DNA from: Naegleria gruberi
Lineage: Eukaryota
DNA: 64,000 bases
Strand: one strand, 5' to 3'
Assembly (NCBI GenBank): GCA_000004985.1
Contig: GG738889.1
In this document: piece by piece, positions 14,995 through 28,360 of the stretch
Numbering within the stretch: position 1 is the stretch's first letter
Layout of the letters: each line of letters begins with the position of its first letter
The notes under the pieces: generated by a model
The model's input: the letters and a program-made list of their open reading frames with translations, nothing else
Databases searched by the model: none
Told to the model about the DNA's origin: nothing
Position numbers and translations under genes: made by a program

Positions 14995-17217
14995 TTAAAC
15001 AATATCATCTTCTTCATTCATATCATCTTTGAACTTGGAATACTTTTGGAAGAAACCCTTCTTTTGTGAAATGGTATGATCGACATCTAACTCAATTTCT
15101 GTATCGGCAGGAGTTGTATCAAGAACTGGTCTTACAGGTTCTAAATTCTTATTTAAATTATCACTGGATCTATGAGGAATGTGTGGAGATGATGAAATCT
15201 TGACGTTTGAAGTTTGATTCTTAGTCATGTTGGTGAGGATTGGATTCATCCATTCCATATCTTTAGGCAAGAAGAAGGAATCTTCTTGAATAAATACTTG
15301 AGAAATAATTTCAATGAAATCCTTCTTGGTAATCTTGACGAATGACACATCCTTTACAATACGAACATCATAGTCTGGAATAAAGGTTTCTCTTGTAAGG
15401 GCTCTTTCACCAATAAAACTCCAAGGTCCCATTTCAGAAGTGAATTTTTCTTCACCAAAAACAGCCTCAAGTTTACCACTGAAAACAAGAGCAAAGAAAT
15501 CGCATTCCTTATTCTTTTCAATGAGGAGCAATTCTTGATCAGAAGTCTTCTTAATGTCAACAACTGCACATTTACCAAGGAGTCTATGCAAATATTCTTC
15601 AGGTAAAAGTCTGAAGGTAGCCATACTCTTCCACAAGTAGGAAGCTACAGCAACAACTTGCTTTGGAGTAAGTCTGTGGGTTCTTTCCAACTTGAGTAAT
15701 AAACTAGTAGAGTTTTGTGGTCTGTTAATCTTGGATTGATTAGTATTATCAACATAGATATCAGTTTCGTCTACAATTTCATCCTTAATAATTTCTTCAA
15801 TGATATCTTCAAGAGATACAATACCAACAATAGCATAGTATGGATCACCACCAGTTTCAGATTCTCTTGGTTCATGAACAATAGCAATGTGAGTTCTACC
15901 AGATTTGAAGGTCTTTAACATTTCATCACAATAAGTGTCAGGGAAAACTTTGAGAACCTCTCTTCCGTAGAATGTCAAAATTGTAGAAATTGGTAAGCAT
16001 TCATCAGGATTGACTAGAATCAAATCTTTAACGTAGAGCAAACCAACAATGTTATTCTTGTCACCCTTGAAAACAGGAATACGGGAGTGACCAGCTTGCC
16101 AAATACTTGTCATTGTTTCAACATCAAGTTTGTTATCAATATCCAACATGTAAACGTTTTCAAATTTTGTCATAATTTGACTGACAGGAATTCTGGCAAA
16201 TTCCAAAGCACCACCCAAAATTTTAGCTTCGTGTTCAGTCAAGTGGAAATTAGGATCGTGAGCCTTGGAGTGAATATTGACCAATTCCTTCAATTCGGTT
16301 CTCTTGTAGAGAGTACCATGGTCAGCTCCGAGAATCCAATCCAAAAGTTTACTGATTGGATAAGAAATGATGAAAGCAAGACCAATCAAGAACCAAACCA
16401 ACCAAAACAAAGTACCACCAATAGCAATACCATATCTAGAAATGACAGCTTGGGGAATAATTTCACCAAACAACAAAACGGCAGTAATACCTAACAAAAT
16501 GGCAACCCATTCAGGAACAAGCTTGTCCAAGAAAAGTGGAAGACATTCTACACACAAAGCATTCCACAACAACAAGGTAACCAACAATAAGTGGTGACGT
16601 TTCAAGATTGGTGCTAAACGAGCAGCATACTTTCTCTCTTTTTCGGTACCAGTTGATTTAAGAATATCCAATTGCATTGTATCAATGGAGAGCAAACCAA
16701 GTGTAAAACCAGACATTAAACCAGCACCCAAAATAAAGAAAATACTGGCACAAACGTTAATAACAATATCATACCAAGGCATATTCAAAATAGATTCTTC
16801 ATCATCTTTTTCTTCACCAGTATGAGAGGATCCATTAGTGTGATTATAGTAGTGGGCACAAACAGTAGGCCAATCGATTGTGCTATTATCATCAATACTG
16901 CTAGCAAAAACATTACTAAATCTTTTTGTTGTTGGGACGTAGCCTTCTACAAACATTGACGATGAATCAGACCAAGCGGCCACACTTTCATCATGTTGAA
17001 CATAATTTTCAAAAGAAAGAGTTGCCAAAGCAACCAAAATTAAAAGGGAAAGGGTAAAGACGAGCGAAAAACTCTTCTTTTTAATTTGTGGGGCCTTTCT
17101 GTTATCATTTACTGATAACATTCCGGATGTTACAGAAGGACGGTAGATTCCCTCCTTTTCATTATTCCCAAATTCACCCCAGAGGGAAGCATTGTGAGTT
17201 GTGAAGGTTTGTATCAT
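14995..17217 (-). CDS. CNNM/ACDP-type divalent-metal transporter (DUF21 transmembrane + CBS pair + cNMP-binding-like domain)
   Basis: TM helices with the DUF21 signature (LLSIDTMQLDILKSTGT...), tandem CBS region (IMTKFENVYMLDIDNKL..., VGIVSLEDIIEEIIKDEIVDETD), and a C-terminal cyclic-nucleotide-binding-like domain. Confidence 0.8.
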   Translation of the reverse strand: MIQTFTTHNASLWGEFGNNEKEGIYRPSVTSGMLSVNDNRKAPQIKKKSFSLVFTLSLLILVALATLSFENYVQHDESVAAWSDSSSMFVEGYVPTTKRFSNVFASSIDDNSTIDWPTVCAHYYNHTNGSSHTGEEKDDEESILNMPWYDIVINVCASIFFILGAGLMSGFTLGLLSIDTMQLDILKSTGTEKERKYAARLAPILKRHHLLLVTLLLWNALCVECLPLFLDKLVPEWVAILLGITAVLLFGEIIPQAVISRYGIAIGGTLFWLVWFLIGLAFIISYPISKLLDWILGADHGTLYKRTELKELVNIHSKAHDPNFHLTEHEAKILGGALEFARIPVSQIMTKFENVYMLDIDNKLDVETMTSIWQAGHSRIPVFKGDKNNIVGLLYVKDLILVNPDECLPISTILTFYGREVLKVFPDTYCDEMLKTFKSGRTHIAIVHEPRESETGGDPYYAIVGIVSLEDIIEEIIKDEIVDETDIYVDNTNQSKINRPQNSTSLLLKLERTHRLTPKQVVAVASYLWKSMATFRLLPEEYLHRLLGKCAVVDIKKTSDQELLLIEKNKECDFFALVFSGKLEAVFGEEKFTSEMGPWSFIGERALTRETFIPDYDVRIVKDVSFVKITKKDFIEIISQVFIQEDSFFLPKDMEWMNPILTNMTKNQTSNVKISSSPHIPHRSSDNLNKNLEPVRPVLDTTPADTEIELDVDHTISQKKGFFQKYSKFKDDMNEEDDIV

Positions 17218-17608
17218 ACGACAGCAGCACTAAACTTGTGTTCTTTGTGTTGGGACCAACAAAAGTAAGCAGACAAGAAATTTTTTTTTGTTGAAGTTTT
17301 ATTTGCGCGCTTTTATGGACAGACAACGCTAATAAGAAAGATAGAAAACAAGGTGATGATGATGGGTTATTACTCAATCAAATACTAGTATCGGGATTCT
17401 ATCATGATTGTAAAGAAGATCTAATTTGCTTCCTATTGGATTTTACAAATCAAACATTTGTAAATTTTACAATTTTTTATGAACGTTGTATGATTGTTTT
17501 TAGAGTTCTTGAAACCGAAACTAGAACTCCTATCTTTTGCTAGAAGGCATTATTTATTGTAATGCAATTCAATTTGTTCCACTGCAGAAAAAAATATTTG
17601 AAAACCAA

Positions 17609-19093
17609 ATGATAACGTTTGCCCACACAAAGAAGAAGAATTTGTTGAATTTTAATGGTCCTTCCGTTGAGAGGCTCTTGAAAAAGATTGATCAAAAATT
17701 GGCTCACGAAACATCTTCAAATAATTTGAAAAGGCTCAAGAAATTATTGGTACGAAAGAGGACTCTTCAGAAGAATAGACGAAATATATTCGAAAAGTGT
17801 CCTCCAAAATTTGATCAACAAGACGAGCCAATGATTTCACACAATTCCACTTCTTCCTATCAATTTTACGATGACATTTGTTATGAAATATTGTCTTTTA
17901 TTGATGATTGGAAATTAATTTTGTTGACTTGTTCATTAATTTCGAAGCAGTGGTTGAATGTTGTGAGAGAAAGGGTGAAACTTTGTGTGGAATTTAAAAA
18001 TCCAATTGTCAGTAAGAAAACCATAAAATTAATGATGAATAGAGAGTGTTTAGAACAGTTTGAGTCGATGAATGTGAGAGGTATTTCAAGGTTACAGTTT
18101 TACAAGATTTTTGAAAAAACTAAACAATTGACTAAACTTGATATTGGTAAAAGTATAATATGGTTGGAAGGATTTAAAAGTATTACTGAATTGAAACATT
18201 TAAACTCGTTGGATATGAATAACATGGTTTTTATGGAGAAAGAATCTAAATTAGAGCTGTTAGAATCCATTAGTCAATTACACCAGCTGACCTGTCTGAA
18301 TATTAGTTCTAATAATGTTGGTTTTAATACATTCAAACCAATTGGAAACGTGAAACAGTTAACATATTTAGATGTCAGTTGGAATTATATTTCGGATGAG
18401 GGAGCAAAAGTTTTGAGTCAATTAAGTCAATTAACACATCTTAATGTTAATTGCACTATTATTGGAATTGAAGGAGCGAAATATATCAGTAAGTTAACTA
18501 AATTAAGAACACTTATTGCTGCAAGGAATAACTTTTGGATTGAGGGTTGCCAATATTTTAGTGAAATGGAACAATTGACTGCACTAGATGTTTCTCATAA
18601 TAGTATTGGCAATACTGGTATCAAATATCTATCTAAAATGAAACAATTGACTGAATTAAATATTAATGATAATGCTATCAATCAATTTGGAACAGAAGAA
18701 TCCAAATTAATTCGGGAGTTATCTCAATTAACAAAACTCTCTATTAGCTCAAATAATATTGGAATCGAAGGTGTAACAGCCATTTCTACAATGAGTCAAT
18801 TAAGAACACTCAACATATTTTTCAATAGGATTGGATTAGCTGGAGCCAAGTTAATAAGTGGAATGCAAAACCTGACTGTACTTGATATTTGTAATAATGA
18901 CATTGGTACAAACGGTGCTAAGGAAATTAGCAAAATGAAACAATTAACGAAACTAGATATTGCTAGAAATATGATTGGAAATGAAGGCGCAAAAGCACTC
19001 AAAAGCATGAAACAACTCAAATCACTTCGAAATACATTTAATAATATTATATGGAATGACGATGAAGACTTGAGTTTGGGCGAAATATTGTAG
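17609..19093 (+). CDS. F-box-like / RNI-type leucine-rich repeat protein
   Basis: N-terminal F-box-like YDDICYEILSFIDDWKLILLTCSLISKQWLNVV, then about 14 tandem 24-25-aa repeats of the form NxIGxEGAKxISKMKQLTxLDIxxN. ATG at 17609; the ORF-track start at 17537 is TTG. Confidence 0.7.
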   Translation: MITFAHTKKKNLLNFNGPSVERLLKKIDQKLAHETSSNNLKRLKKLLVRKRTLQKNRRNIFEKCPPKFDQQDEPMISHNSTSSYQFYDDICYEILSFIDDWKLILLTCSLISKQWLNVVRERVKLCVEFKNPIVSKKTIKLMMNRECLEQFESMNVRGISRLQFYKIFEKTKQLTKLDIGKSIIWLEGFKSITELKHLNSLDMNNMVFMEKESKLELLESISQLHQLTCLNISSNNVGFNTFKPIGNVKQLTYLDVSWNYISDEGAKVLSQLSQLTHLNVNCTIIGIEGAKYISKLTKLRTLIAARNNFWIEGCQYFSEMEQLTALDVSHNSIGNTGIKYLSKMKQLTELNINDNAINQFGTEESKLIRELSQLTKLSISSNNIGIEGVTAISTMSQLRTLNIFFNRIGLAGAKLISGMQNLTVLDICNNDIGTNGAKEISKMKQLTKLDIARNMIGNEGAKALKSMKQLKSLRNTFNNIIWNDDEDLSLGEIL

Positions 19094-19096
19094 AAT

Positions 19097-20963
19097 TTAC
19101 TCTCTAAGTACGAATAGATCACCATAATTTTCAACCAGATATTTCCATTGCAAATCTGTTAATCCAATTCCTAATTGCAAAGTTTCACTTGTATTTCCAT
19201 GTAAGAATGCATGATGAAGGAAATCCATCTTTTCAAAGTTGACCATTCCTCTTGGTTGGCCCAAAATTCTAAAATTGATATCATTTAAAAAGTCATACTT
19301 CATCCAATTTGTCATTGAGAAGGTAATCCTTGCATCATCAATAATTACCTTATATCTGTCCATGTGTTCTTCATCGTGGTAGGATTTACTCATCTCTTGA
19401 ATAAATCTTTCAGTTGCCTTTTCAGTATTTTGTTCATTAACTTGCTTTCTAACTTGCATCACTAGCTCTGCAAGTGACATCTTTAGGATTTCGCTCTTCT
19501 TTTGAGAGATCCAAACATTCGAAAGAGGATTGCCAATATACATTTTAGTGTCATCTCTGATTGGAGGATAATTAAATCTAAAGTTGCATACCATTCTAAA
19601 GGAGAGAGTAGTTTCCCCTGGTTGACTTGGGTCTGCGTGAGCCATCATTGAAAAGAGAATTGCTGAAATAACATCATTGGTTGATACAATTGAATTGTTT
19701 GGAGTGGAATTTTTGATTTTCTGTTTGAGAATTTCTAATTGTTTTTTGGAAATGTTAATTCTTCTAGCTTTGGCTTTGTATTGACGAAGACAATTAATCA
19801 TGTTAAAGACATATTTGTGGAATTTGTAAAATTCCTGATGAGAATAGGTAATATTTGGACTAAAAAACAATTAATTACATCATGGTATCTATACTTACTC
19901 AATCTTTTCTTTTGGTAATATCAAGTTGACTCTTGACATGGTTGGTAATTGAGTTGGATTTTGTTGACATGTCATCTCAGCCCAAAATTTCATAAAAAAG
20001 TGTCCAACTTCAGCTCCACCAACAGAATGATTCAATGCAAGTGCAATAACAGGTACAATTCTTCCATTTTCCAATTTAAGAAATGAAATTTGTATTCTTG
20101 ACAATTCCTTTTCCGAATATGGTGATTTAATTTCTGGTTTAAATACCAATTCACTCTCCATTTCCAATAAATCGCTTTCATCCTCAACTTTTCCAACTTG
20201 CTTTTCAATAATTGCAACATTTAACATTGGATTTTCCACTACAATCTATTCGCACCTAAAGCAAGGATTAGGAAACGATTCTTTTTGGCTTGCTTTTCTC
20301 GTCGCACATGTTTTTTGTTTCACACTAATTTTTTGTTTTAGCTCATTTCTTGCTTTAGTATCTTTCTGAGGTGTGTAGTTTGTAGTGATGATAAATAACC
20401 AAAAATGGTTTCTGTCTCCCTTTTACCAAATTTCTCTCCTCTTCAGAAAGTAGAGCCAAATCCTTTTCATCCATTGGATTTAAATCTCTATATCTTCCTC
20501 CAACTGTTGGAAAATAGAAAAGAGTCCTTTCCAATCCTTCAATTAACATTTTTTCACACTCAACCAAATCTTCCTCATCAATTTCATTAAAATACACAGA
20601 ATATGGTACATAGGAAGTTCTAAATCTAGCATAGCCATCATTGAGAGTTAGAATTGTACATTTCTTTTGATACATTTCCAATAAATTCTCATCACAATTT
20701 TCCACATTTGGAATTTTTGAATGAACACTAACAATTTTCACTTTCTTTGATGGATATTCACTCGATTGTGAAAGTATCAGATCAGAAATACTAGTTTCAG
20801 GTTTGTAAGTTGCCATCTTCCAAACAGTATTCATCACCAACCAATCTAAAATATTGCTAAATGTCAATTGTCTAAACGTTCCTTGTTTTTTCCATAATGA
20901 CCACATCATGATCACTGCAATTGCTCCTCCGGTGAGGCAAACACCCAACACAACCAACAACAT
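19097..20963 (-). CDS. BAHD / PF02458 (transferase-family)-like acyltransferase with N-terminal TM anchor, at least 3 exons
   Basis: Exon 1 (~20360-20963): TM helix then the BAHD N-terminal motif LIEGLERTLFYFPTVGGRY. Exon 2 (19899-~20236): QISFLKLENGRIVPVIALALNHSVGGA, an HXXXD-type motif with G in place of D. Exon 3 (19097-19859): the C-terminal half. Exons 2-3 are joined by a 39-nt intron at 19860-19898 (GTAAGTAT...TTTTTTAG). The exon 1-2 junction is not resolved. Confidence 0.5.
19860..19898 (-). other. putative 39-nt intron (3n length, contains an in-frame TAA)
   Basis: GTAAGTATAGATACCATGATGTAATTAATTGTTTTTTAG. The flanking ORFs are in the same frame. Confidence 0.55.
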
Positions 20964-21191: not shown

Positions 21192-24100
21192 ATGATAACA
21201 CGTTATGTCATTGGAAAGGTGAAGGAAAGAATCAGTGAGAATAACAAGAAGAATCTAGAGGATACCTTTGCACGTTCCCGAAAGCAATTTCTTGAAGAAA
21301 AGGAACAAGCCAAGTCAAAAAGCAAAAAGAATGACAAGTCAATTGTCAAGAAGAAGGAACAGGCTGATGTTTCAATTATCGGATCAATTGATTCTGCATT
21401 GAAAGGAGCATGTTTTCCTGATCCTGATCCAAAGTTGAATGCTAATGTTTATGTTGATGATGTTGCACGTTTAAATATGACAAATGTCAAACGTGTTTTT
21501 CATGTCAGAAATGAGCAAGATATTCAAAGAGTTTTTGAGTATGCAAGAAGAATGAACTTTAAAGTATCAATGAGAGGTACCCAACACTGCATGGGTGGTC
21601 ATACCATTGCCAAAGATGGTTTAGTTATAGACACACGTAAATTACTAAAAATGGAATTTGATTCTCAAAGTGAAACTGTTAGAGTTGGAGCTGGTGTAAG
21701 ATGGAGTGATTTGATTTTCTATTTGAATCAGTTTGGTATGTCTCCTCACACAATGCAGAGTTATTCAACTTTTAGTGTGAGTGGAACTGTCAGTTGTAAT
21801 GCTCATGGAATTACAACTGATTTATGTTCACATGAAAGTGTATTAGAAATGAGAGTGGTGATGTGGGATGGAAGAATTGAGACGTGCACTCCAGATTCTG
21901 AATTATTCAAGTGTTGCATTGGTGGTTTTGGAATGTTTGGTTTCATTAGTGAACTCGTGTTAAAATGTGTTCCAAATCATCAAATATTTATGGAAATGAT
22001 TCAATGCAAGGCAAATGATTTCTTGGATTTTTATGAGAGAATTCTGCAGGATCCACAAAATGATATTAATATCAAATTGGCTCGTTTGGATATTTCCAAT
22101 TTTAATGATATTAACATTTTTGTGTTTAGAAAGAATTCAGATAGAAAAACTGTTTCAGATTTGCCACTCCATCCAAAGACAATGTCCATCCAAAGTCAAA
22201 TCATTTACAAGTGGTTAGCTCCAAGTGCAGGTTCTATTCGTTATTCAGTTGAACGTTTAACAGGAAGACCAGCTGATTGGTCTGTCGTTAATGATAGAAA
22301 TTTACTCATGTACGAAACTTCGACTCCTCTGGCTAAACTTTATTCTCCTCTATTCGATGTGAATGATACATTCATTTTACAGGAATACTTTGTACCACAT
22401 TCTAAATTCCAGGAATGGATCATGAGTGCTTCAAAAATCATTCAATCTCATCCATCTCATCTCAAACAATTCACACTTCTCAATATCACCATTCGTTATG
22501 TAAAGAAAGATAATTGTACATTCCTTCCGTATGGTAGACATGATGAGGGATCATTTGCATTCGTATTGTACTATAGAATGAAGTGTACTGATGAGGCAGA
22601 TAGAGAATTGGCAACACTTCATAATGATCTAGTTGAGGCCACTTTGAAATTGAATGGCATCTTTTATTTACCTTACAGACATCATTACAGTGATGAACAG
22701 TTGAAGAAAGCTTATCCAATGATTGATGATTTCTTTAAACTCAAAGCTAAATATGATCCTCGTGGAATGTTTGATTCATTGTGGTTTAATAGATATGGTA
22801 AACAGTATTTTGAAAAGTATGCGAATGAAAATTCTGATCACTCCATTGGTCAATCAACTGCAGATTTAGTTGGTAATAATAAGGAAGCAATAACAGAGCT
22901 AATTAAATCAGTTGAAACCAGACGAAATGATTCTTACCGTAAGGTATTCAATAATCCACAATTGAGGAAGCAATTTTATGAGGCATTCCTTGAACAAATT
23001 TTCAATGTCGAAAGCAAAGCAACCTTGGAAAATGTAATCTCATCAGCCATGTGGAATATCAAGTGCCAAGACGATAGTGATATCTACTCTTTCATTTTAC
23101 AAAAATTGTCAAAACAAGGATTAGTTTCAAATGTTTTGAAATTATGGAGAGGATCCAATCAAAACAGAAGTCAAAAGAAGGAACTATTGAGAGAAACTTC
23201 ATCCATTCTATCTAAAATTGGAAAGATGGGATCGATTAGAGATTATGTCTCAATTGGTGATAGTGGTAAAATGGTTTTGGCTTTTAAGGAATGTCTTGGA
23301 ATTGATGGAAATATCCACATTGTCAATGATAATGAACCATCTGATGAAAATATGGGTGTTTATATGGAGAGAGGTTCTTTGAAACCTGTTGGAAAGTTTG
23401 TGAAATTGAACTATTCTTGCCTTGATTTAGAAAGTTCATCGGCTGACATGGTTACAATGAATCAAGGTCTCCATCACATTCCACCTCAACATTTGCAATC
23501 TTTCCTTAAGGAAGTTTTCAGAATTTTGAGACCTGGAGGTATCTTTATTGTGAGAGAACACGATGCCACTCCAGAGCTCAAACCACTTCTTGACATAGCC
23601 CACAGTGTCTTTAATGCAGTGATGAATGTTGACATTCTCGATGAGAGAAATGAAGTCAGAGCATTCAGATCCATCTTGGAATGGCGTACAATTGTAGAAT
23701 CTGTTGGATTTTTAGATACAATGATTTATGAGATGGAACACGGAGATCCAACTCTAGATGAGATGATGGCTTTTTGTAAGTGTTCTGATCTCTCTCAAAT
23801 TTCAGAGGAATCTACTTCAGCCAAATCAACAAATCAATCTTCACTGCCACCAAAACAACTCAAGACAGCTCCTGAAGGAAGTACTTCAATGGGAATCGCT
23901 CTCACCATTGATGCACTACTTGCCAAAGTTCCAAACTTTGTGATTGAATTTTTCAGAAAGTTTGTCTCTTGGATTTTAGGATGGTTCAAAAAGATTCCAG
24001 GATTGATTGAAGATTTGAATCTATCCTCGATGGTAAAACCATTCATTGATCAGATATTGAATGAATATTGTAAACCAATTGAGGAATTCTTGGAAAAATT

Positions 24101-25655
24101 GGTTCCTCTCCTATTGGATGTGAAAATTAAGGAAGATGGTTTGGAAATTATTCCACCAGAATTATTCCTCCTCATTGAAGGTTTGTATAGGAAGAAGAAT
24201 AGAAGTGCTGTCGAATCATTAATTGTTGTGATTATTGACTCAATCACTGGATTGGTTCAAGAAAGAAACGAATCATCCAACAAGAATGAAACTATAACAA
24301 TTCCTTCAAAGGATGATGTTGATGTGAAGGAAGTTACTGAATTAATGAAAAAGCTATTCGAAAGAATGCCAGATTTGCTGAGTGAGGATAAATTGAAAAG
24401 GGGTGGATTAGGAAATATCACACCATTTGTTAAGGCCATCGCCATGATGACTCCAGAAGAAATGGCTCCTAAATTAGTTTCCTTCCTCGATATAATTTCA
24501 TGGAGTTTAATGAAAGAGCCACTCCTTGAGATTATTGAAAGTAAGAAGGAGATTCCACTCTCGATGGATAACATTTGCAAAGTTGGAAATCCTTGGAACA
24601 GATGCGCTTCTGCCTTCCTCAGTTCTCCAAATGTAAAGTTAAACAAGTATAGTGAAATTGGATGGTGGGCTCTTGGATTAACTCCAATTCTCAATTTGTG
24701 GAAAGAAGCTCAACAAGAAAGATGTAAACAAAATGAAAAGAATAGACCAACAAGAGGAATAGTCGATCAGCTGAGCACTTCTGCTGAAACTATGCTCGAA
24801 TCAGCTGTAGGCCTCTCATTCATGACTGGAGATCAATCCCAGCTCTCTAATTACCTTAAGGAGACAAACATTCTTAAAGTGAGTGAAGCTAATACCAATG
24901 TGGAATTTAATTGGTACAAATTGGTGGAATGGTTACAAGTGGATTATGTTCAAACATTTGGAAAATTCATGGAAAATACACCATGGTACAGATTTCCATT
25001 TATTGAATTCTTAAGAGTTTATTTCCAAACTCTATATGAAGAATTCAAAATTATCAACTCTGAATATGGATTTGATAAATCACTCATGAGCTCTGCATTT
25101 TTCACTGATTTGATTCCAGGAGTTGCCATGACTGTTTTGATGGGACAAATGCAAGCTCTTGCCATTCCTCTCAAAATGGGCTTGGGTGAAACAGCTTCCA
25201 AAGAGGTTGTTTCTGGACAAGTTGAAACTATTCTAATCACTCTCGTTGATGATAATCCAATGACATTTGTTTCAATTGACGACAGAATTATTTTTGAAAC
25301 CATTGTTCCAGGTCTATTCCAAATCACTGTACCAACCTACAAACCATTCTCAGATATTATCATGAAATTGGCAAGACAACTTCCAGAATCCAGTAGAATT
25401 TTGGCCATTTCTCATCATGAACAGATTCAACTTAGAGTCAAAACTCCAAGCAAAGAGGAAGTTCATAAAATGGCTTCCCTTGAAGGTTGCAATGTTAAAT
25501 TCACCTTTGAATTGCCAACGGATGGCACTGAACAATATTCACCTTCAATTTATTCATCTGTCGAAGTGAAAACTATTCATTTATTACAATTTATTAGAAC
25601 ATGTAATGAGCTTTCATTTGAAATTATTCAAATTTTTGATTTCTGTTCTGTTTAA
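21192..25655 (+). CDS. large multidomain protein: FAD-linked oxidase (VAO/PCMH superfamily; ALO/GULO- or DHCR24-like) + class I SAM methyltransferase + ~650-aa C-terminal region
   Basis: aa ~90-280: FAD_binding_4-like (RGTQHCMGGHTIAKDGLVID..., SVSGTVSCNAHGI). aa ~430-530: lactone-oxidase/DHCR24-type C-terminus YRHHYSDEQLKKAYPMIDDFFKLKAKYDPRGMFDSLWFNRY. aa ~690-800: MTase fold (DYVSIGDSGKMVL, LHHIPPQHLQSFLKEVFRILRPGGIFIVREHD). Single uninterrupted 1487-codon ORF. Confidence 0.7.
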   Translation: MITRYVIGKVKERISENNKKNLEDTFARSRKQFLEEKEQAKSKSKKNDKSIVKKKEQADVSIIGSIDSALKGACFPDPDPKLNANVYVDDVARLNMTNVKRVFHVRNEQDIQRVFEYARRMNFKVSMRGTQHCMGGHTIAKDGLVIDTRKLLKMEFDSQSETVRVGAGVRWSDLIFYLNQFGMSPHTMQSYSTFSVSGTVSCNAHGITTDLCSHESVLEMRVVMWDGRIETCTPDSELFKCCIGGFGMFGFISELVLKCVPNHQIFMEMIQCKANDFLDFYERILQDPQNDINIKLARLDISNFNDINIFVFRKNSDRKTVSDLPLHPKTMSIQSQIIYKWLAPSAGSIRYSVERLTGRPADWSVVNDRNLLMYETSTPLAKLYSPLFDVNDTFILQEYFVPHSKFQEWIMSASKIIQSHPSHLKQFTLLNITIRYVKKDNCTFLPYGRHDEGSFAFVLYYRMKCTDEADRELATLHNDLVEATLKLNGIFYLPYRHHYSDEQLKKAYPMIDDFFKLKAKYDPRGMFDSLWFNRYGKQYFEKYANENSDHSIGQSTADLVGNNKEAITELIKSVETRRNDSYRKVFNNPQLRKQFYEAFLEQIFNVESKATLENVISSAMWNIKCQDDSDIYSFILQKLSKQGLVSNVLKLWRGSNQNRSQKKELLRETSSILSKIGKMGSIRDYVSIGDSGKMVLAFKECLGIDGNIHIVNDNEPSDENMGVYMERGSLKPVGKFVKLNYSCLDLESSSADMVTMNQGLHHIPPQHLQSFLKEVFRILRPGGIFIVREHDATPELKPLLDIAHSVFNAVMNVDILDERNEVRAFRSILEWRTIVESVGFLDTMIYEMEHGDPTLDEMMAFCKCSDLSQISEESTSAKSTNQSSLPPKQLKTAPEGSTSMGIALTIDALLAKVPNFVIEFFRKFVSWILGWFKKIPGLIEDLNLSSMVKPFIDQILNEYCKPIEEFLEKLVPLLLDVKIKEDGLEIIPPELFLLIEGLYRKKNRSAVESLIVVIIDSITGLVQERNESSNKNETITIPSKDDVDVKEVTELMKKLFERMPDLLSEDKLKRGGLGNITPFVKAIAMMTPEEMAPKLVSFLDIISWSLMKEPLLEIIESKKEIPLSMDNICKVGNPWNRCASAFLSSPNVKLNKYSEIGWWALGLTPILNLWKEAQQERCKQNEKNRPTRGIVDQLSTSAETMLESAVGLSFMTGDQSQLSNYLKETNILKVSEANTNVEFNWYKLVEWLQVDYVQTFGKFMENTPWYRFPFIEFLRVYFQTLYEEFKIINSEYGFDKSLMSSAFFTDLIPGVAMTVLMGQMQALAIPLKMGLGETASKEVVSGQVETILITLVDDNPMTFVSIDDRIIFETIVPGLFQITVPTYKPFSDIIMKLARQLPESSRILAISHHEQIQLRVKTPSKEEVHKMASLEGCNVKFTFELPTDGTEQYSPSIYSSVEVKTIHLLQFIRTCNELSFEIIQIFDFCSV

Positions 25656-25664
25656 AATAATGCT

Positions 25665-26896
25665 CTATATATCAATTGAATCACTAATACCCTCCGATCT
25701 AACTAAAGAGGTTGGTTTGAAATTACTTTTCAAATATGCTTGATATTGTTCACAGAATTTACGATCATTTTCTCTATCAAAATCATAATCCAATTCATTT
25801 CTCATTAATTTCAAAAAATCTAAAGGAATATAGGTAATTTTGAATTCTGCAATCTTTAAGATGGACGCGTCTGACTTCATTGAGTAGATGTGAATAAATA
25901 CCTGAGTTGGATTTGAAAGCACAGCATCCTTCTTTTTTGTAACAAATTGAATGAATACTACTTTTTTGATTACCTTTGAAGTTTTCATTGCATTCCAAAC
26001 TCTTTCTTCGTTGATATTACCAGAAGCTGGCTTACAGTGAGGATTAAAGAAAGTAAGGTGCTCACTTTTTTGCATGAAAGTGGCAAGGTTTTCATGTCCA
26101 ATAAGTGGGTAAGCAAAAACCGTATGCTTAGATTGATTCCAATTGGCATGATTTGTGTGTAGGAATGTAACAAAACACAATTTTTCAAAGGCAGATTTGA
26201 AAGTGAAATTAATAGCATTGCTGGAATCTTTGCTTTGTATCCATGTAAGCTTTTTAACATTTTCCAAAATTGCTGATTGAAATGAATGAGAATGCATAAG
26301 ATCTTGTCTTACTATAATATTCTCAAATTTAACTCCAACATTGGTCATTTCTTCTATTATTTTCATATTTGCCATGTTTGGTAACAACTCTACACCAATA
26401 GCTTTAAAAGGTGGAGTTTTACCACCATTCAATTTAAACTTTCCTTGTGATAAATCCAATATAAAATTACAATTTAACATTGCCTCTCTCATTGAAGTTG
26501 TCATTCTACAAAGAGCATTCACAAATATTGGATCCAACAATCTATTAGAAAATGCAAAATCAAATATAATTCTCATACAATCATTGCTTATTGAAAGAAA
26601 AACCAAACTATCCAAACATTCCTTTAGGTTTTTGAAAATACATATTAAGATAAGCATAGTCTTTCAAAAAATCATACCTTTGTCTTTTCGTATCTTCTCA
26701 CATTGGAAAATGAAATTCTTGTTCTGGAATCTTCTTTCAATTTATGGAGTAGAGATTGTCTTTTACTTTCCAACTCTAATATTTGTTCATCGATTTGATA
26801 AAATTGCGTTTTAATGTCCTCGATATTATCTTCATCATTATTTGTTTTTAATTCCTTGTTCGGAATGTTTGCTTCTTCTTGTAGTTTTCTTTTCAT
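25665..26896 (-). CDS. hypothetical protein, 2 exons (coiled-coil N-terminus)
   Basis: Exon 1 (26678-26896): ATG, acidic coiled coil. A 56-nt intron at 26622-26677 (GTATGATT...CCTAAAG) joins it in phase to exon 2 (25665-26621). No confidently recognisable domain. Confidence 0.45.
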
Positions 26897-27067: not shown

Positions 27068-28360
27068 ATGAAGTTTGCTGTTCTTCCTTCCCCATCATCA
27101 TCCAACAATAGTGAAAGAATCGGAGAGATTACTTTTGAAGAGTATCCTGATAAAAAGTTCTCTACACCAACTTATATTGTGCAAACAAGAAAGGGATCCG
27201 TGCCTTGCATTACTTGCGACCATTTTGATGAATTAATCGGAAATTTGTTTGCTGGTTCGAATGAAAGTGTTATTTTGAATATGAATTATTGGGATTTGAT
27301 GGAAAATCCAAGTTTAGAAATTTTGACCAAATACTTGGAAAAGAACCCAACCAAGACATTGAAAAATTATCTTCATCTTGAAAAATATCCATTCTTCCAA
27401 AGTATTAGAAATGTTGAATTCCCTTACCCAACAAGTAATGCAAATGAAAAGGGAATTTATGCCGATTTGGAAAAGGGTAGATCTAAATTCACTGATGCAG
27501 AATTTTGCAATCACACATTCAACATGTTTAAACCAGATATATTTATTGGAATTCACGATACAAACATCAAATGTAAAGTTAATGACTCTTTTGGAACATC
27601 AAAACAATTAAAAAGAGCCAAGACAAGCACTGAAAAGTGGGGAGAAACCTGCATAAAGAAGAGACAAGAACTTGTTGATAAGCAACAAACAGGCATTCCA
27701 GAAATGATTTATTCAGTTTTCTATGAAAGTGAAGAAATGACCTCACTCATACCAGAAGTTTTCCAAAATAACACTGACAATATCAAGGGTATTAATTTCG
27801 ACATTGGACACATGGACGATTTGGAGAAAATTGTTAAAATTAAGGAATCATTGAAGAATCAAAAATGTGATTTGGAAAAATTAGTATTCTTCATCTCTGG
27901 AAAGGATCATCCTTTGGAAGTTTTGGAATGTGTCAGTAGAGGTGTTGATATTTTTGATGGTATTTATCCATTCACTATTGCAGAAATGGGAATGGCTAGC
28001 ATGTATCCATTAGAATTACCAAATGATAATCCAGAAAAGGTGAAAATGACTATCAATTTGAGAGATCGTAATTTTGAAAAAGATTTCACACCTTTAGAAT
28101 CAACTTGTACATGTTTTACCTGTAGAAATCATACTAGAGGCTATATTCACCATCTCCTTAACACCCACGAAATGCTTGGTGATATTCTCCTTACCATGTA
28201 AGTAATTTTTACAATTTCTCAAATTGAAATATTAACACAACATCAAAACAGCCACAACCTTCACAGATATCTTTTATTCTTCAAGAAGATGAGAGAATCC
28301 ATTCAACAAGGTACATTCGAACAATTCAAGACAAGATTTATTCAATCAGTCTCGATCTAA
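27068..28360 (+). CDS. QTRT2: queuine tRNA-ribosyltransferase accessory subunit 2 (QTRT2/QTRTD1)-like, 2 exons
   Basis: TGT-family fold with the C-terminal zinc motif CTCFTCRNHTRGYIHHLLNTHEM. A 54-nt intron at 28198-28251 (GTAAGTAAT...AAAACAG) restores the conserved tail LLTIHNLHRYLLFFKKMRESIQQGTFEQF. Confidence 0.75.
28198..28251 (+). other. 54-nt spliceosomal intron
   Basis: GTAAGTAATTTTTAC...CATCAAAACAG. Splicing recreates the conserved QTRT C-terminus. Confidence 0.7.

What the first reader, a model, noticed from the sequence alone, without database searches (positions are those of the whole stretch)
21192..25655. 1487-aa single-ORF fusion: FAD-linked oxidase + class I SAM methyltransferase + large uncharacterised C-terminus
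The N-terminal ~530 aa carry FAD_binding_4 (PCMH-type) motifs and a C-terminus (YRHHYSDEQLKKAYPMIDDFFKLKAKYDPRGMFDSLWFNRY) typical of sugar-1,4-lactone oxidases (ALO/GULO); it also resembles the DHCR24 tail (HYSSEEL...). An unambiguous SAM-MTase fold follows (LHHIPPQHLQSFLKEVFRILRPGGIFIV), and then ~650 aa with amphipathic and hydrophobic character. Redox and methyl-transfer modules on one polypeptide suggest two consecutive steps of one pathway hard-wired together, for example a sterol or lipid side-chain modification, or oxidation then methylation of a small metabolite. I do not recognise this combination.
Basis: partly seen in the sequence, partly recalled or inferred. Interest (0 to 1): 0.6.

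Follow-up and report, generated by a model that had tools for sequence, protein, structure and literature searches.

The report
Conserved flavin oxidase–methyltransferase fusion enzyme
This is a real, single 1487-residue Naegleria gruberi gene that joins a flavin-dependent alcohol oxidase/dehydrogenase, a divergent methyltransferase and a previously undescribed tail domain; the family is found in many protists, their giant viruses and their intracellular bacteria, but its substrate is still unknown.

Summary
ORF 21192-25655 (+) is uninterrupted and identical to the annotated N. gruberi protein 'FAD linked oxidase'. It has four parts:
- a VAO/PCMH flavoenzyme with an ALO-type cap (aa 85-535);
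- a helical subdomain plus a class I methyltransferase fold (575-863);
- an all-helical insertion (866-1239);
- a 250-aa C-terminal domain (CTD, 1240-1487) with no Pfam, NCBIfam or PDB counterpart.

The fusion is not an artefact. More than 100 collinear homologues occur in protists, giant viruses and Chlamydiae. In Babeliales and other bacteria the same parts are two genes (MTase-CTD and oxidase). Of 15 bacterial loci, 10 have the genes adjacent in varied order and 3 have them fused. In two proteins a non-homologous GMC-type FAD oxidase replaces the VAO-type oxidase in front of the same MTase-CTD.

My best reading is a two-step enzyme: flavin-dependent oxidation of a C-OH group coupled to SAM-dependent methyl transfer, probably on a hydrophobic or membrane-associated substrate. 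The substrate is unknown. It is not a member of the ALO/GULO, DprE1 or UbiE families. I could not test the DHCR24/sterol side-chain idea, and nothing here points to it. I found no literature on this family. It is a moderately interesting conserved family of unknown function.

The parts
21192..25655 (+). Complete single-exon gene, 1487 codons plus stop
   Evidence: ORF; 100% identity and coverage to the annotated N. gruberi protein P0001; stop at 25653-25655.
21192..21410 (+). Lys/Glu-rich, poorly conserved N-terminal region (aa 1-73). It has no hydrophobic anchor or signal sequence.
   Evidence: occupancy 0.28-0.42, conservation <0.1; maximum Kyte-Doolittle 1.07 before the oxidase domain.
21411..21431 (+). 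CFPDPDP motif (aa 74-80), the Naegleria version of the C-W-P-D-P-D-P motif that precedes the oxidase in the long eukaryotic forms
   Evidence: the motif recurs in the N-termini of many long forms; translation.
21444..22796 (+). VAO/PCMH-type flavoenzyme domain (aa 85-535). FAD_binding_4 covers aa 101-232 and the ALO-type cap/C-terminal part covers aa 393-534.
   Evidence: Pfam; NCBIfam hits, all far below cut-offs; the closest solved relatives are GalDH, DprE1, cytokinin oxidase and xylitol oxidase; strong conservation.
21585..21587 (+). His132, in the TQHCMGG motif. It aligns with the position that carries the 8-alpha-N1-histidyl-FAD link in GULO/ALO and is Leu in GalDH.
   Evidence: GalDH 'GsglsP' aligns to the profile's 'GarksM'; His conserved in eukaryotic and viral forms; not conserved in the bacterial split oxidases; PMC11099136 for the His/Leu rule.
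21756..21758 (+). Gln189, in the invariant MQSY motif. It aligns with GalDH Ala113, the oxygen-gatekeeper position.
   Evidence: GalDH 'nfaS' and its A113G variant 'nfgS' align to the profile's 'amqS'; M, Q and S invariant; PMC11099136: Ala in dehydrogenases, Gly in oxidases.
22665..22676 (+). YLPY (aa 492-495), a family-invariant motif. The second Tyr aligns with the catalytic Lys418 region of DprE1.
   Evidence: invariant; alignment to DprE1 'GrlYtak'; the identity of Lys418 is from my own knowledge.
22914..23243 (+). Helical N-terminal subdomain of the methyltransferase module (aa 575-684)
   Evidence: helices at model residues 2-111, pLDDT >90; always present with the MTase core, also in the bacterial stand-alone proteins.
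23244..23780 (+). Class I (Rossmann, 7-strand) methyltransferase core (aa 685-863). Motif I is G689-D-S-G-K693 (23256-23270); the acidic residue after beta2 is D713 (23328-23330); LHH, REHD, AHSVFNA, EVRAFR and DPT are conserved motifs.
   Evidence: Methyltransf_11 and related families; conservation; strand order, pLDDT >90; Foldseek: Coq5 9.6e-8, Rv2258c, PKS C-MTs, AtmM, MitM.
23787..24908 (+). All-helical insertion (aa 866-1239) found only in the long eukaryotic clade
   Evidence: short forms jump from about aa 863 to about aa 1240; occupancy about 0.6; no Pfam; helices throughout, pLDDT 75-96 in parts, below 50 in loops.
24909..25652 (+). Family-specific C-terminal domain, CTD (aa 1240-1487): three long helices followed by an alpha/beta subdomain
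25092..25184 (+). Long hydrophobic third helix of the CTD (aa 1301-1331, SAFFTDLIPGVAMTVLMGQMQALAIPLKMGL). It may be a membrane-contact or substrate-pocket element.
   Evidence: hydropathy peaks conserved across homologues; helix at model residues 74-104; best 19-residue Kyte-Doolittle score: 1.57 here; means 1.74 long eukaryotic, 2.1-2.2 viral and short eukaryotic, 1.18 bacterial.

Best explanation
The gene encodes a genuine multi-domain enzyme of an uncharacterised but widespread family. I propose four modules.

1. The N-terminal VAO/PCMH flavoenzyme (ALO-domain clade) oxidises a C-OH group of the substrate to a carbonyl. In the Naegleria protein the FAD is probably covalently attached through His132. 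Gln189 occupies the position where true oxidases have Gly, so the flavin is probably reoxidised by an acceptor other than O2.
2. The class I methyltransferase module, with its helical lid, then transfers a methyl group from SAM to the same molecule or to the next pathway intermediate. Chemically plausible outcomes are C-methylation next to the new carbonyl, O-methylation of the enol, or methyl-esterification after further oxidation.
3. The family-specific C-terminal domain always accompanies the methyltransferase. It supplies a long hydrophobic helix and an alpha/beta subdomain, which I infer to form a substrate or membrane-contact platform.
4. The helical insertion is a lineage-specific addition of the long eukaryotic clade.

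Shown here: domain identities and folds, collinearity of the fusion, linkage of the two catalytic modules, and replacement of the oxidase by a GMC-type oxidase.
Inferred: alcohol oxidation, an active SAM site, the order of the two steps, the hydrophobic or membrane-bound nature of the substrate, and dehydrogenase rather than oxidase behaviour.
Unknown: the substrate.
For: - The ORF is intact and identical to the public model.
- Domains: FAD_binding_4, ALO and Methyltransf_11 all score above Pfam gathering.
- Oxidase relatives: a profile search against the PDB puts GalDH (1.9e-39), DprE1 (1.4e-31), cytokinin oxidases and xylitol oxidase closest. Apart from the cytokinin oxidases, these are CH-OH oxidising enzymes.
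- MTase: the AF2 model of aa 566-863 has pLDDT >90 and the canonical strand order. Foldseek gives small-molecule MTases at probability 1.0, including Coq5, Rv2258c, the PsoF/CurJ/LovB C-methyltransferases, AtmM and MitM. G689 and G692 of motif I are invariant in alignment A6 and the post-beta2 acidic residue D713 is conserved; the polar motifs LHH, REHD, AH..FN, E.R.FR and DPT are conserved from bacteria to eukaryotes.
- Linkage of the modules: fused and collinear in over 100 homologues from heteroloboseans, dictyostelids, dinoflagellates, diatoms, kinetoplastids, Balamuthia, Perkinsus, a green alga, rotifers, Tupanvirus, Edafosvirus and Chlamydiae. Split into two adjacent genes in 10 of 15 bacterial loci, in three different arrangements.
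- Partner replacement: P0232 and P0237 carry a GMC oxidoreductase in front of the same MTase-CTD. What the GMC family and the ALO clade share is FAD-dependent alcohol oxidation.
- CTD: confidently folded and always attached to the MTase.
- Hydrophobic features: a conserved hydrophobic CTD helix, and N-terminal hydrophobic anchors followed by K/R in several viral and short eukaryotic forms (13 of 38 short forms reach Kyte-Doolittle 1.6).
Against: - No substrate, cofactor binding or activity has been measured.
- Motif I is G-D-S-G-K, not GxGxG, and sequence profiles only match the beta4-beta5 half of the MTase. SAM binding is therefore not certain.
- The bacterial oxidases, the MTase-CTD proteins and the chlamydial and GMC fusions all begin with Sec-signal-like peptides. 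An exported SAM-dependent enzyme is hard to reconcile with methyl transfer, unless it acts inside a host cell.
- In the bacterial forms the 'hydrophobic' CTD helix contains Glu and Lys (mean Kyte-Doolittle 1.18). The Naegleria protein itself has no N-terminal anchor and only a borderline helix (1.57). Membrane association is thus not general.
- The cap (substrate) domain of the oxidase does not align with any solved enzyme, so the chemistry is extrapolated from family-level behaviour. Cytokinin oxidases, also close relatives, oxidise amines rather than alcohols.
- Two bacterial loci (L007, L011) have no oxidase within 8 kb.
- No consistent third neighbour gene gives pathway context.
Confidence: 0.6

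Rival explanations
1. The methyltransferase-like module is not a working SAM-dependent methyltransferase. The protein is essentially a flavin oxidase/dehydrogenase, and the Rossmann-like domain and CTD serve as a substrate-binding, regulatory or anchoring scaffold, or bind another nucleotide-like ligand.
For: Motif I deviates (GDSGK in Naegleria, EIGTPG in bacteria). Only half of the domain matches MTase profiles. All bacterial versions carry Sec-type signal peptides and would leave the SAM-containing cytoplasm.
Against: The fold is a complete 7-strand class I MTase at pLDDT >90. G689 and G692 are invariant and the ribose-binding acidic residue D713 is conserved. Strong purifying conservation of His, Asp, Glu and Arg motifs around the predicted active site suggests catalysis. 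Active MTases with atypical motif I exist (own knowledge, for example COMT). The bacteria concerned are intracellular symbionts, whose exported proteins can reach SAM-containing host cytosol (inference).
Confidence: 0.2
2. A sterol-modifying enzyme. One version is the first reader's idea of a DHCR24-like reductase plus a side-chain methyltransferase. The other is 3-hydroxysteroid oxidation followed by ring methylation next to the 3-keto group.
For: Cholesterol oxidases exist in both the VAO and the GMC families, the same two families found in front of the MTase-CTD. VAO-type cholesterol oxidase 1i19 is a weak hit at 1.5e-7, and P0232 weakly matches a cholesterol oxidase model. Hydrophobic anchors and a hydrophobic helix are present. 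The closest MTase structure acts on a prenylated lipid (Coq5). Methylation of 3-keto sterols is known chemistry (own knowledge, C. elegans STRM-1).
Against: The oxidase groups with ALO, GalDH and DprE1, not with DHCR24. No Sterol_MT_C or SMT signature was found. The family is present in Babeliales, Chlamydiae and giant viruses, which do not make sterols. The VAO and GMC families also share sugar C1/C2 oxidation, so the argument is not specific to sterols.
Confidence: 0.12
3. A glycan or lipid-linked sugar tailoring enzyme. It would carry out DprE1-like oxidation of a sugar hydroxyl (possibly on a polyprenyl-phosphate carrier or a surface polysaccharide), followed by methylation to give a keto- or methyl-branched sugar.
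For: DprE1 and the sugar-lactone and alditol oxidases are the nearest characterised relatives. In contig L002 the pair sits inside a polysaccharide cluster with UDP-GlcNAc 2-epimerase, a UDP-sugar dehydrogenase, ManC, glycosyltransferases and a Wzm/Wzt-type ABC transporter. Export signals fit an envelope substrate. Sugar MTases (AtmM) are among the structural neighbours.
Against: Only one of 15 loci has this context. The pooled neighbours of 12 of them show no enrichment for sugar enzymes. The DprE1 catalytic Lys aligns with Tyr. SAM is not available in the periplasm.
Confidence: 0.2
4. A gene-model or assembly artefact that merges two or three neighbouring genes into one ORF.
For: None found. 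Short introns exist in neighbouring genes of this window (the 19097-20963 gene lies in three ORF pieces), so mis-modelling is possible in principle in this genome.
Against: The reading frame is continuous in the raw DNA. Homologues from unrelated eukaryotes, viruses and Chlamydiae align collinearly over 95-99% of the length, for example P0012, P0022, P0023 and P0034. The domain linkers are conserved in position.
Confidence: 0.01
5. A vitamin C-type aldonolactone oxidase (ALO/GULO/GalDH orthologue) with accessory domains.
For: There is a Pfam ALO hit, and GalDH is the best PDB profile hit.
Against: TIGR01678 scores 68 bits against 396.8, and TIGR01676 scores 37.6 against 458. Only the FAD domain and the last helix align. 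The gatekeeper position is Gln rather than Gly or Ala. The obligate association with an MTase is unknown for aldonolactone oxidoreductases (PMC11099136 does not mention one).
Confidence: 0.04

Closest known systems
Aldonolactone oxidoreductases (GalDH, GULO, ALO) of the VAO/PCMH superfamily
   Same: Same two-domain flavoenzyme fold (FAD_binding_4 plus an ALO-type cap). GalDH is the best solved-structure match (1.9e-39). The histidine at the covalent-FAD position is present in the Naegleria protein, as in GULO and ALO.
   Different: Scores lie far below every curated subfamily cut-off. The substrate-binding cap does not align. Gln sits where these enzymes have Gly (oxidases) or Ala (dehydrogenase). 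A YLPY motif replaces their C-terminal active-site motif. None of them is fused or genetically linked to a methyltransferase.
DprE1 (decaprenylphosphoryl-beta-D-ribose 2'-oxidase)
   Same: Second-closest solved relative (1.4e-31; NCBIfam 63.8-97 bits). It oxidises a secondary alcohol on a lipid-linked substrate, is membrane-associated, is not a true O2-dependent oxidase, and works as one step of a two-enzyme couple (own knowledge).
   Different: It is far below the equivalog cut-off of 500 bits. The residue aligned to catalytic Lys418 is Tyr. DprE1's partner is a reductase (DprE2), not a methyltransferase.
Small-molecule class I methyltransferases (Coq5/UbiE, Rv2258c, PKS C-methyltransferases CurJ/PsoF/LovB, AtmM, MitM)
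   Same: Same Rossmann fold with a helical lid (Foldseek probability 1.0, E about 1e-7). Methyltransf_11 and Ubie_methyltran Pfam hits are present.
   Different: Sequence identity is only 10-19%. Motif I is GxxG[KR] instead of GxGxG. The NCBIfam UbiE models score 21 bits against 158. The module carries a unique C-terminal domain.
Other FAD-oxidoreductase/methyltransferase fusions: MnmC (tRNA mnm5s2U synthesis) and plant cyclopropane fatty-acid synthase (own knowledge)
   Same: The same design principle: a flavin redox domain and a SAM methyltransferase on one polypeptide, carrying out consecutive or coupled steps.
   Different: The folds are unrelated (DAO/amine-oxidase-type FAD domains; different MTase subfamilies), the domain order differs in MnmC, and there is no CTD. 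The similarity is analogy only.
Split and fused bacterial versions of the same family (Babeliales/Dependentiae, Parachlamydia and other Chlamydiae, unnamed MAGs), and giant-virus versions (Tupanvirus, Edafosvirus)
   Same: Homologous oxidase, MTase and CTD modules with the same conserved motifs.
   Different: The bacterial forms have Sec-type signal peptides, lack the covalent-FAD His, lack the helical insertion and are mostly two genes. The viral forms are about 1035-1130 aa; many begin with a hydrophobic N-terminal segment and all lack the insertion.

Membership tests
VAO/PCMH flavoprotein superfamily | PCMH-type FAD-binding domain (Pfam FAD_binding_4) above the gathering score | tested here: met
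   89.2 bits against a 26.4 cut-off, aa 101-232, profile positions 3-138 of 139.
Aldonolactone oxidoreductases (ALO/GULO/GalDH) | ALO-type C-terminal domain | tested here: met
   PF04030, 36.3 bits against 23.1, but only the second half of the profile (124-257 of 258). Bacterial relatives align over the whole of TIGR01678/TIGR01679.
Aldonolactone oxidoreductases (ALO/GULO/GalDH) | Score above the curated subfamily/equivalog cut-offs (TIGR01678, TIGR01676) | tested here: not met
   68.1 bits against 396.8, and 37.6 against 458.25.
Aldonolactone oxidoreductases (ALO/GULO/GalDH) | Gly (oxidase) or Ala (dehydrogenase) at the flavin N5-contact position 113 | tested here: not met
   alignment: the position is the invariant Gln189 (MQSY). 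The rule is from PMC11099136.
Aldonolactone oxidoreductases (ALO/GULO/GalDH) | Substrate-binding residues of the cap domain (for example the Glu/Arg pair of GalDH) | tested here: inconclusive
   the cap region gives no alignment to GalDH. Only the FAD domain and the last helix align.
DprE1 | Equivalog score and catalytic Lys418 | tested here: not met
   63.8 bits against 500; the DprE1 'YtaK' segment aligns with the family's YLPY, so Lys is replaced by Tyr495.
DHCR24/DWF1 sterol delta-24 reductases | Specific similarity to DHCR24 beyond the shared FAD_binding_4 domain, plus an N-terminal membrane anchor | not tested
   No DHCR24 profile or solved structure was available in the tools. The Naegleria N-terminus has no hydrophobic anchor. 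All specific hits go to the ALO/DprE1 clade.
Class I SAM-dependent methyltransferases | Seven-strand Rossmann-like fold with the canonical strand order | tested here: met
   strands at model residues 120-123, 143-147, 170-173, 186-191, 214-225, 275-277 and 291-298; pLDDT >90; MTase structures at probability 1.0.
Class I SAM-dependent methyltransferases | Glycine-rich motif I (E/DxGxGxG) after beta1 | tested here: not met
   the motif is S-I-G-D-S-G-K. The first Gly and the fourth position Gly are invariant, and the central Gly is absent. In bacteria it is E-I-G-T-P-G. This is a variant rather than a loss, so SAM binding remains unproven.
Class I SAM-dependent methyltransferases | Acidic residue at the end of beta2 that binds the SAM ribose | tested here: met
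   D713 ('vvHD' consensus) is conserved and follows the predicted beta2.
Class I SAM-dependent methyltransferases | Actual SAM binding and methyl transfer | not testable with these tools
   This requires biochemistry or ligand co-folding.
UbiE/COQ5 quinone C-methyltransferases | Curated family score | tested here: not met
   TIGR01934 scores 21.2 bits against 158.35. The Pfam Ubie_methyltran hit is partial (positions 56-170 of 233). Coq5 is only a fold neighbour at 18% identity.

The most novel reading that the evidence does not exclude
The family would carry out a previously unrecognised two-step tailoring reaction (alcohol to carbonyl, then methylation) on a membrane lipid, sterol or lipid-linked glycan. 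It would be ancient in eukaryotes, captured by giant viruses, and exported by amoeba-resident bacteria (Babeliales, Chlamydiae) as an effector that remodels host membranes. The MTase-CTD would be a new kind of methyltransferase module that recruits interchangeable flavin oxidases (VAO-type or GMC-type).
Probability: 0.15. Interest if true: 0.75.

Novelty: new variant of a known kind. Interest (0 to 1): 0.5.

Why it matters
If the inferred mechanism holds, this is a large, untouched enzyme family: over 1000 cluster representatives at 50% identity across many eukaryotic supergroups, Imitervirales-type giant viruses and obligate intracellular bacteria. It would hard-wire flavin-dependent alcohol oxidation to methyl transfer, and it carries a domain with no known counterpart. 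Identifying the product could reveal an unknown methylated keto-lipid, sterol or sugar that is common in protists. The occurrence in hosts, in their viruses and in their symbionts would make it a candidate factor in host-parasite membrane biology. The comparative evidence (gene fission and fusion, and replacement of the oxidase by a non-homologous one) already gives a clear, testable hypothesis and several small, expressible versions, such as the bacterial two-gene pairs and the roughly 1050-aa viral proteins. If the methyltransferase turns out to be inactive, this is simply another orphan VAO-family oxidase.

Tried and rejected
- Aligning a window fragment against full-length homologues (A1) spread the fragment over the wrong domains, so I discarded it. 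I used trimmed homologue fragments instead (A2, A6).
- The search for related loci with 25 diverse bacterial MTase-CTD proteins failed for lack of a conserved block. A tighter set of 8 worked.
- The exact-sequence contig look-up of the window protein found nothing.
- A pooled Pfam scan of 100 neighbour proteins from 12 bacterial loci showed no recurrent partner. GNAT acetyltransferases made up 6 of 100, which is probably background.
- The DUF6159 gene plus a 248-aa membrane-protein gene downstream of the pair occur only in L020 and L021.
- Four literature searches on the fusion and family returned nothing on it. Two further searches located the gatekeeper literature, and I checked one incidental hit and dismissed it.
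- I considered and rejected a merged-gene artefact and a strict ALO/GULO, DprE1 or UbiE assignment (see the membership tests).
- I did not pursue a mitochondrial or secretory targeting prediction for the Naegleria N-terminus, because no tool was available.
- The neighbour-joining tree is crude: corrected p-distances, midpoint rooting and no support values.

Full report
**Observation.** The window has about 33% G+C. It contains one uninterrupted ORF at 21192-25655 on the + strand, 1487 codons starting with ATG. The protein is 100% identical over its whole length to a public protein named 'FAD linked oxidase [Naegleria gruberi]' (P0001). The window is therefore N. gruberi nuclear DNA, and the public single-exon gene model equals this ORF. 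Pfam finds FAD_binding_4 (aa 101-232, E 2.6e-25), ALO (aa 393-534, E 6.6e-9) and Methyltransf_11 (aa 724-787, E 1.2e-8), all above their gathering scores.

**Anatomy.** I compared the protein by BLAST and MAFFT with 119 homologues. This resolves it into the following units:
- a poorly conserved Lys/Glu-rich N-terminus (aa 1-73), ending in a CFPDPDP motif that recurs as CWPDPDP in related long forms;
- the flavoenzyme (aa 85-535);
- a short linker;
- a helical subdomain plus methyltransferase core (aa 575-863);
- a region (aa 866-1239) present only in proteins of about 1500-1800 aa;
- a C-terminal domain (CTD, aa 1240-1487) present in every family member.

Short forms of about 1035-1130 aa pass from about residue 863 to about residue 1240 of the Naegleria numbering, some directly and some through an unaligned stretch. 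Neither matches any Pfam family.

**The flavoenzyme.** The closest solved structures are L-galactono-1,4-lactone dehydrogenase, DprE1, cytokinin oxidases and xylitol oxidase, both by single sequence and by profile (1.9e-39, 1.4e-31, about 1e-26 and 1e-25). Only the FAD-binding domain and the last helix align; the substrate cap does not. NCBIfam models for sugar-lactone oxidases, GalDH and DprE1 all match, but at 38-68 bits against cut-offs of 397-500. The domain therefore belongs to the ALO-domain clade of the VAO superfamily but to none of its characterised families.

Three residues are informative:
- **His132** aligns with the position that is His (covalent 8-alpha-N1-histidyl FAD) in GULO and ALO and Leu in GalDH. 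It is conserved in the eukaryotic and viral forms but not in the bacterial ones.
- **Gln189**, in the invariant MQSY motif, aligns with GalDH Ala113. The deposited A113G variant shows the register directly. PMC11099136 reports Ala there in dehydrogenases and Gly in O2-using oxidases. A Gln suggests, by inference, poor reactivity with oxygen.
- **Tyr495**, the second Tyr of the invariant YLPY, aligns with the DprE1 segment that holds its catalytic lysine.

**The methyltransferase.** Sequence profiles see only the beta4-beta5 half of the domain. An AlphaFold2 model of aa 566-1240, built with 23 trimmed homologues, gives pLDDT above 90 for aa 566-863. It shows five to six helices followed by a canonical seven-strand Rossmann fold. 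Foldseek retrieves small-molecule methyltransferases at probability 1.0: Coq5, Rv2258c, Plu4894, the PKS C-methyltransferases PsoF, CurJ and LovB, AtmM, MitM and TleD. These matches are generic, with 10-19% identity.

Motif I reads S-I-G-D-S-G-K (E-I-G-T-P-G in bacteria), not GxGxG. Even so, G689, the post-beta2 acidic residue D713, and the motifs LHH, REHD, AHSVFNA, E.R.FR and DPT are conserved across kingdoms. The fold is certain. Catalytic competence is likely but unproven.

The third helix (aa 1301-1331) is hydrophobic in all homologues, but to different degrees. Mean best 19-residue Kyte-Doolittle scores are 2.1-2.2 in viral and short eukaryotic forms, 1.74 in long eukaryotic forms (1.57 in Naegleria) and 1.18 in bacteria, where it contains Glu and Lys. 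It is thus a structural helix that could contact a membrane or line a hydrophobic pocket. It is not an obligate transmembrane segment.

**Distribution and linkage.** An exhaustive profile search with the CTD finds 1032 representatives at 50% identity. Classifying the retrieved sequences with domain HMMs shows that every protein not obviously truncated at its N-terminus has the MTase module in front of the CTD. Named sources include dictyostelids, dinoflagellates, Perkinsus, Balamuthia, Bodo, Amoebophrya, Cymbomonas, a diatom, bdelloid rotifers, Tupanvirus and Edafosvirus. A short form, P0114, lies on a giant-virus-like contig.

A class of proteins of about 550-580 aa consists of MTase plus CTD only. 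On their contigs the next gene is a stand-alone FAD_binding_4+ALO oxidase. A scan of GTDB genomes places such loci in Babeliales (Dependentiae), Parachlamydia and other Chlamydiae, and unnamed MAGs. HMM mapping of 15 evaluable loci gives the following:
- 10 adjacent pairs, in three arrangements (MTase-CTD then oxidase, oxidase then MTase-CTD, and divergent);
- 3 chlamydial fusions of about 1200 aa;
- 2 loci without an oxidase nearby.

This is classical fission/fusion evidence for functional coupling, and it disposes of the merged-gene artefact. A crude neighbour-joining tree separates four clades: bacterial, giant-virus, short eukaryotic and long eukaryotic. Naegleria falls in the long eukaryotic clade.

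**Replacement of the oxidase.** P0232 (1405 aa) lies on a bacterial contig that also carries RING, PARG and DUF2608 genes. P0232 and P0237 (1306 aa) each have a signal peptide, a GMC oxidoreductase (GMC_oxred_N and GMC_oxred_C) and then the same MTase-CTD. GMC enzymes are unrelated in fold to VAO enzymes, but like the ALO clade they are FAD-dependent oxidisers of C-OH groups. This is the strongest hint about the chemistry: the MTase-CTD needs an alcohol-oxidising flavoenzyme, of whichever fold.

**Topology clues.**
- The bacterial oxidases, the bacterial MTase-CTD proteins, the chlamydial fusions and the GMC fusions all begin with Sec-signal-like sequences: a basic n-region, a hydrophobic core and small residues before a polar stretch. 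No predictor was run, so this is my reading of the sequences.
- Several viral and short eukaryotic forms begin with a hydrophobic segment followed by Lys/Arg, which suggests an N-terminal anchor with the enzyme facing the cytosol; 13 of 38 short forms reach Kyte-Doolittle 1.6 before the oxidase domain.
- The Naegleria protein has neither feature.

Export of a SAM-dependent enzyme is the main difficulty for the model. It could be resolved if the symbionts deliver the proteins to the host, but that is speculation.

**Context.** One bacterial locus (L002) embeds the pair in a polysaccharide cluster with a Wzm/Wzt-type transporter. Other loci are surrounded by housekeeping genes, and the pooled neighbours show no recurrent family. 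The Naegleria neighbours are a BAHD-type acyltransferase, an LRR protein, a TGT-family gene and a CNNM transporter. They give no pathway hint.

**Interpretation.** The most economical mechanism is a two-step enzyme. The flavin domain oxidises a hydroxyl group to a carbonyl, probably acting as a dehydrogenase with covalent FAD in the eukaryotic forms. The methyltransferase then methylates the same molecule. Methylation at the carbon next to the new carbonyl is chemically attractive, because C-methyltransferases that act beside keto groups are among the structural neighbours, but this is not shown. The CTD is an obligatory accessory of the methyltransferase. The substrate class (lipid or sterol, lipid-linked or free sugar, or a small metabolite) cannot be decided from these data.

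I put 0.6 on the general mechanism, about 0.2 on an inactive or non-SAM methyltransferase-like module, and lower values on specific substrate proposals. Four literature searches on the fusion or family found no paper about it.

**Novelty.** The sequence and its Pfam domains are already public, so the fusion as such is not a discovery. New here are the delineation of the family-specific CTD, the split/fused/replaced-partner evidence, the four-clade structure, and the residue-level arguments that separate the oxidase from ALO/GULO and DprE1. It is best described as a new variant of a known kind, a bifunctional flavoenzyme-methyltransferase, and as a good candidate for experimental work.

Noticed in passing
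window 19097-20963 (- strand): Three consecutive ORF pieces (19097-19870, 19895-20239 and 20355-20963) are separated by gaps of 24 and 115 nt. The first piece matches the BAHD-type 'Transferase' family (PF02458, E 4.8e-10). They are probably one acyltransferase gene with two short introns, transcribed divergently from the oxidase-MTase gene with 228 nt between them.
   Followed up: partly
window 17537-19093 (+ strand): A 518-aa ORF rich in RNI-type leucine-rich repeats (LRR_6, E 1.8e-29), with an N-terminal stretch that looks F-box-like by eye.
   Followed up: partly
window 27068-28201 (+ strand): A 377-aa ORF of the queuine tRNA-ribosyltransferase (TGT) family (E 3.9e-36). The match stops at profile position 322 of 357, so the gene may continue beyond an intron.
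   Followed up: no
window 14995-17217 (- strand): A 740-aa CNNM-type putative metal transporter with CBS and cyclic-nucleotide-binding domains.
   Followed up: no
window 25665-26657 (- strand): A convergent 330-aa ORF whose coordinates begin 10 nt after the stop codon of the oxidase-MTase gene. It has no Pfam match.
   Followed up: no
L020 4898-6561 and L021 4479-6172: In two related bacterial contigs the MTase-CTD/oxidase pair is followed by the same two polytopic membrane-protein genes (DUF6159, about 300 aa, and an unannotated protein of about 248 aa). This may be a four-gene operon. It was not seen in the other loci.
   Followed up: partly
L002 900-21400: Here the bacterial pair sits inside a surface-polysaccharide cluster: UDP-GlcNAc 2-epimerase, a UDP-sugar dehydrogenase, a GFO/IDH/MocA oxidoreductase, ManC, two asparagine-synthase-like genes, glycosyltransferases, an ABC-2 transporter pair and a separate methyltransferase. 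This is the only locus with such a context.
   Followed up: partly
L022 (contig of P0232), whole locus: The bacterial contig encoding the GMC-oxidase variant also carries eukaryote-like genes (RING finger, poly(ADP-ribose) glycohydrolase, Glyco_transf_34) and DUF2608. DUF2608 also appears near the pair in other loci (2 of 100 neighbours). This looks like a protist-associated symbiont genome.
   Followed up: no
L007 4886-6577: In a MAG labelled Pseudomonadota the MTase-CTD gene is split into two ORFs (232 and 304 aa), and no oxidase lies within the 8.8-kb contig. It may be a pseudogene or a sequencing frameshift.
   Followed up: no
P0099, P0101, P0108 (bdelloid rotifers, Rotaria spp.): Short-type family members are annotated in three Rotaria genomes and cluster with protist short forms in the tree. 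This is consistent with horizontal acquisition by bdelloids or with contamination.
   Followed up: no
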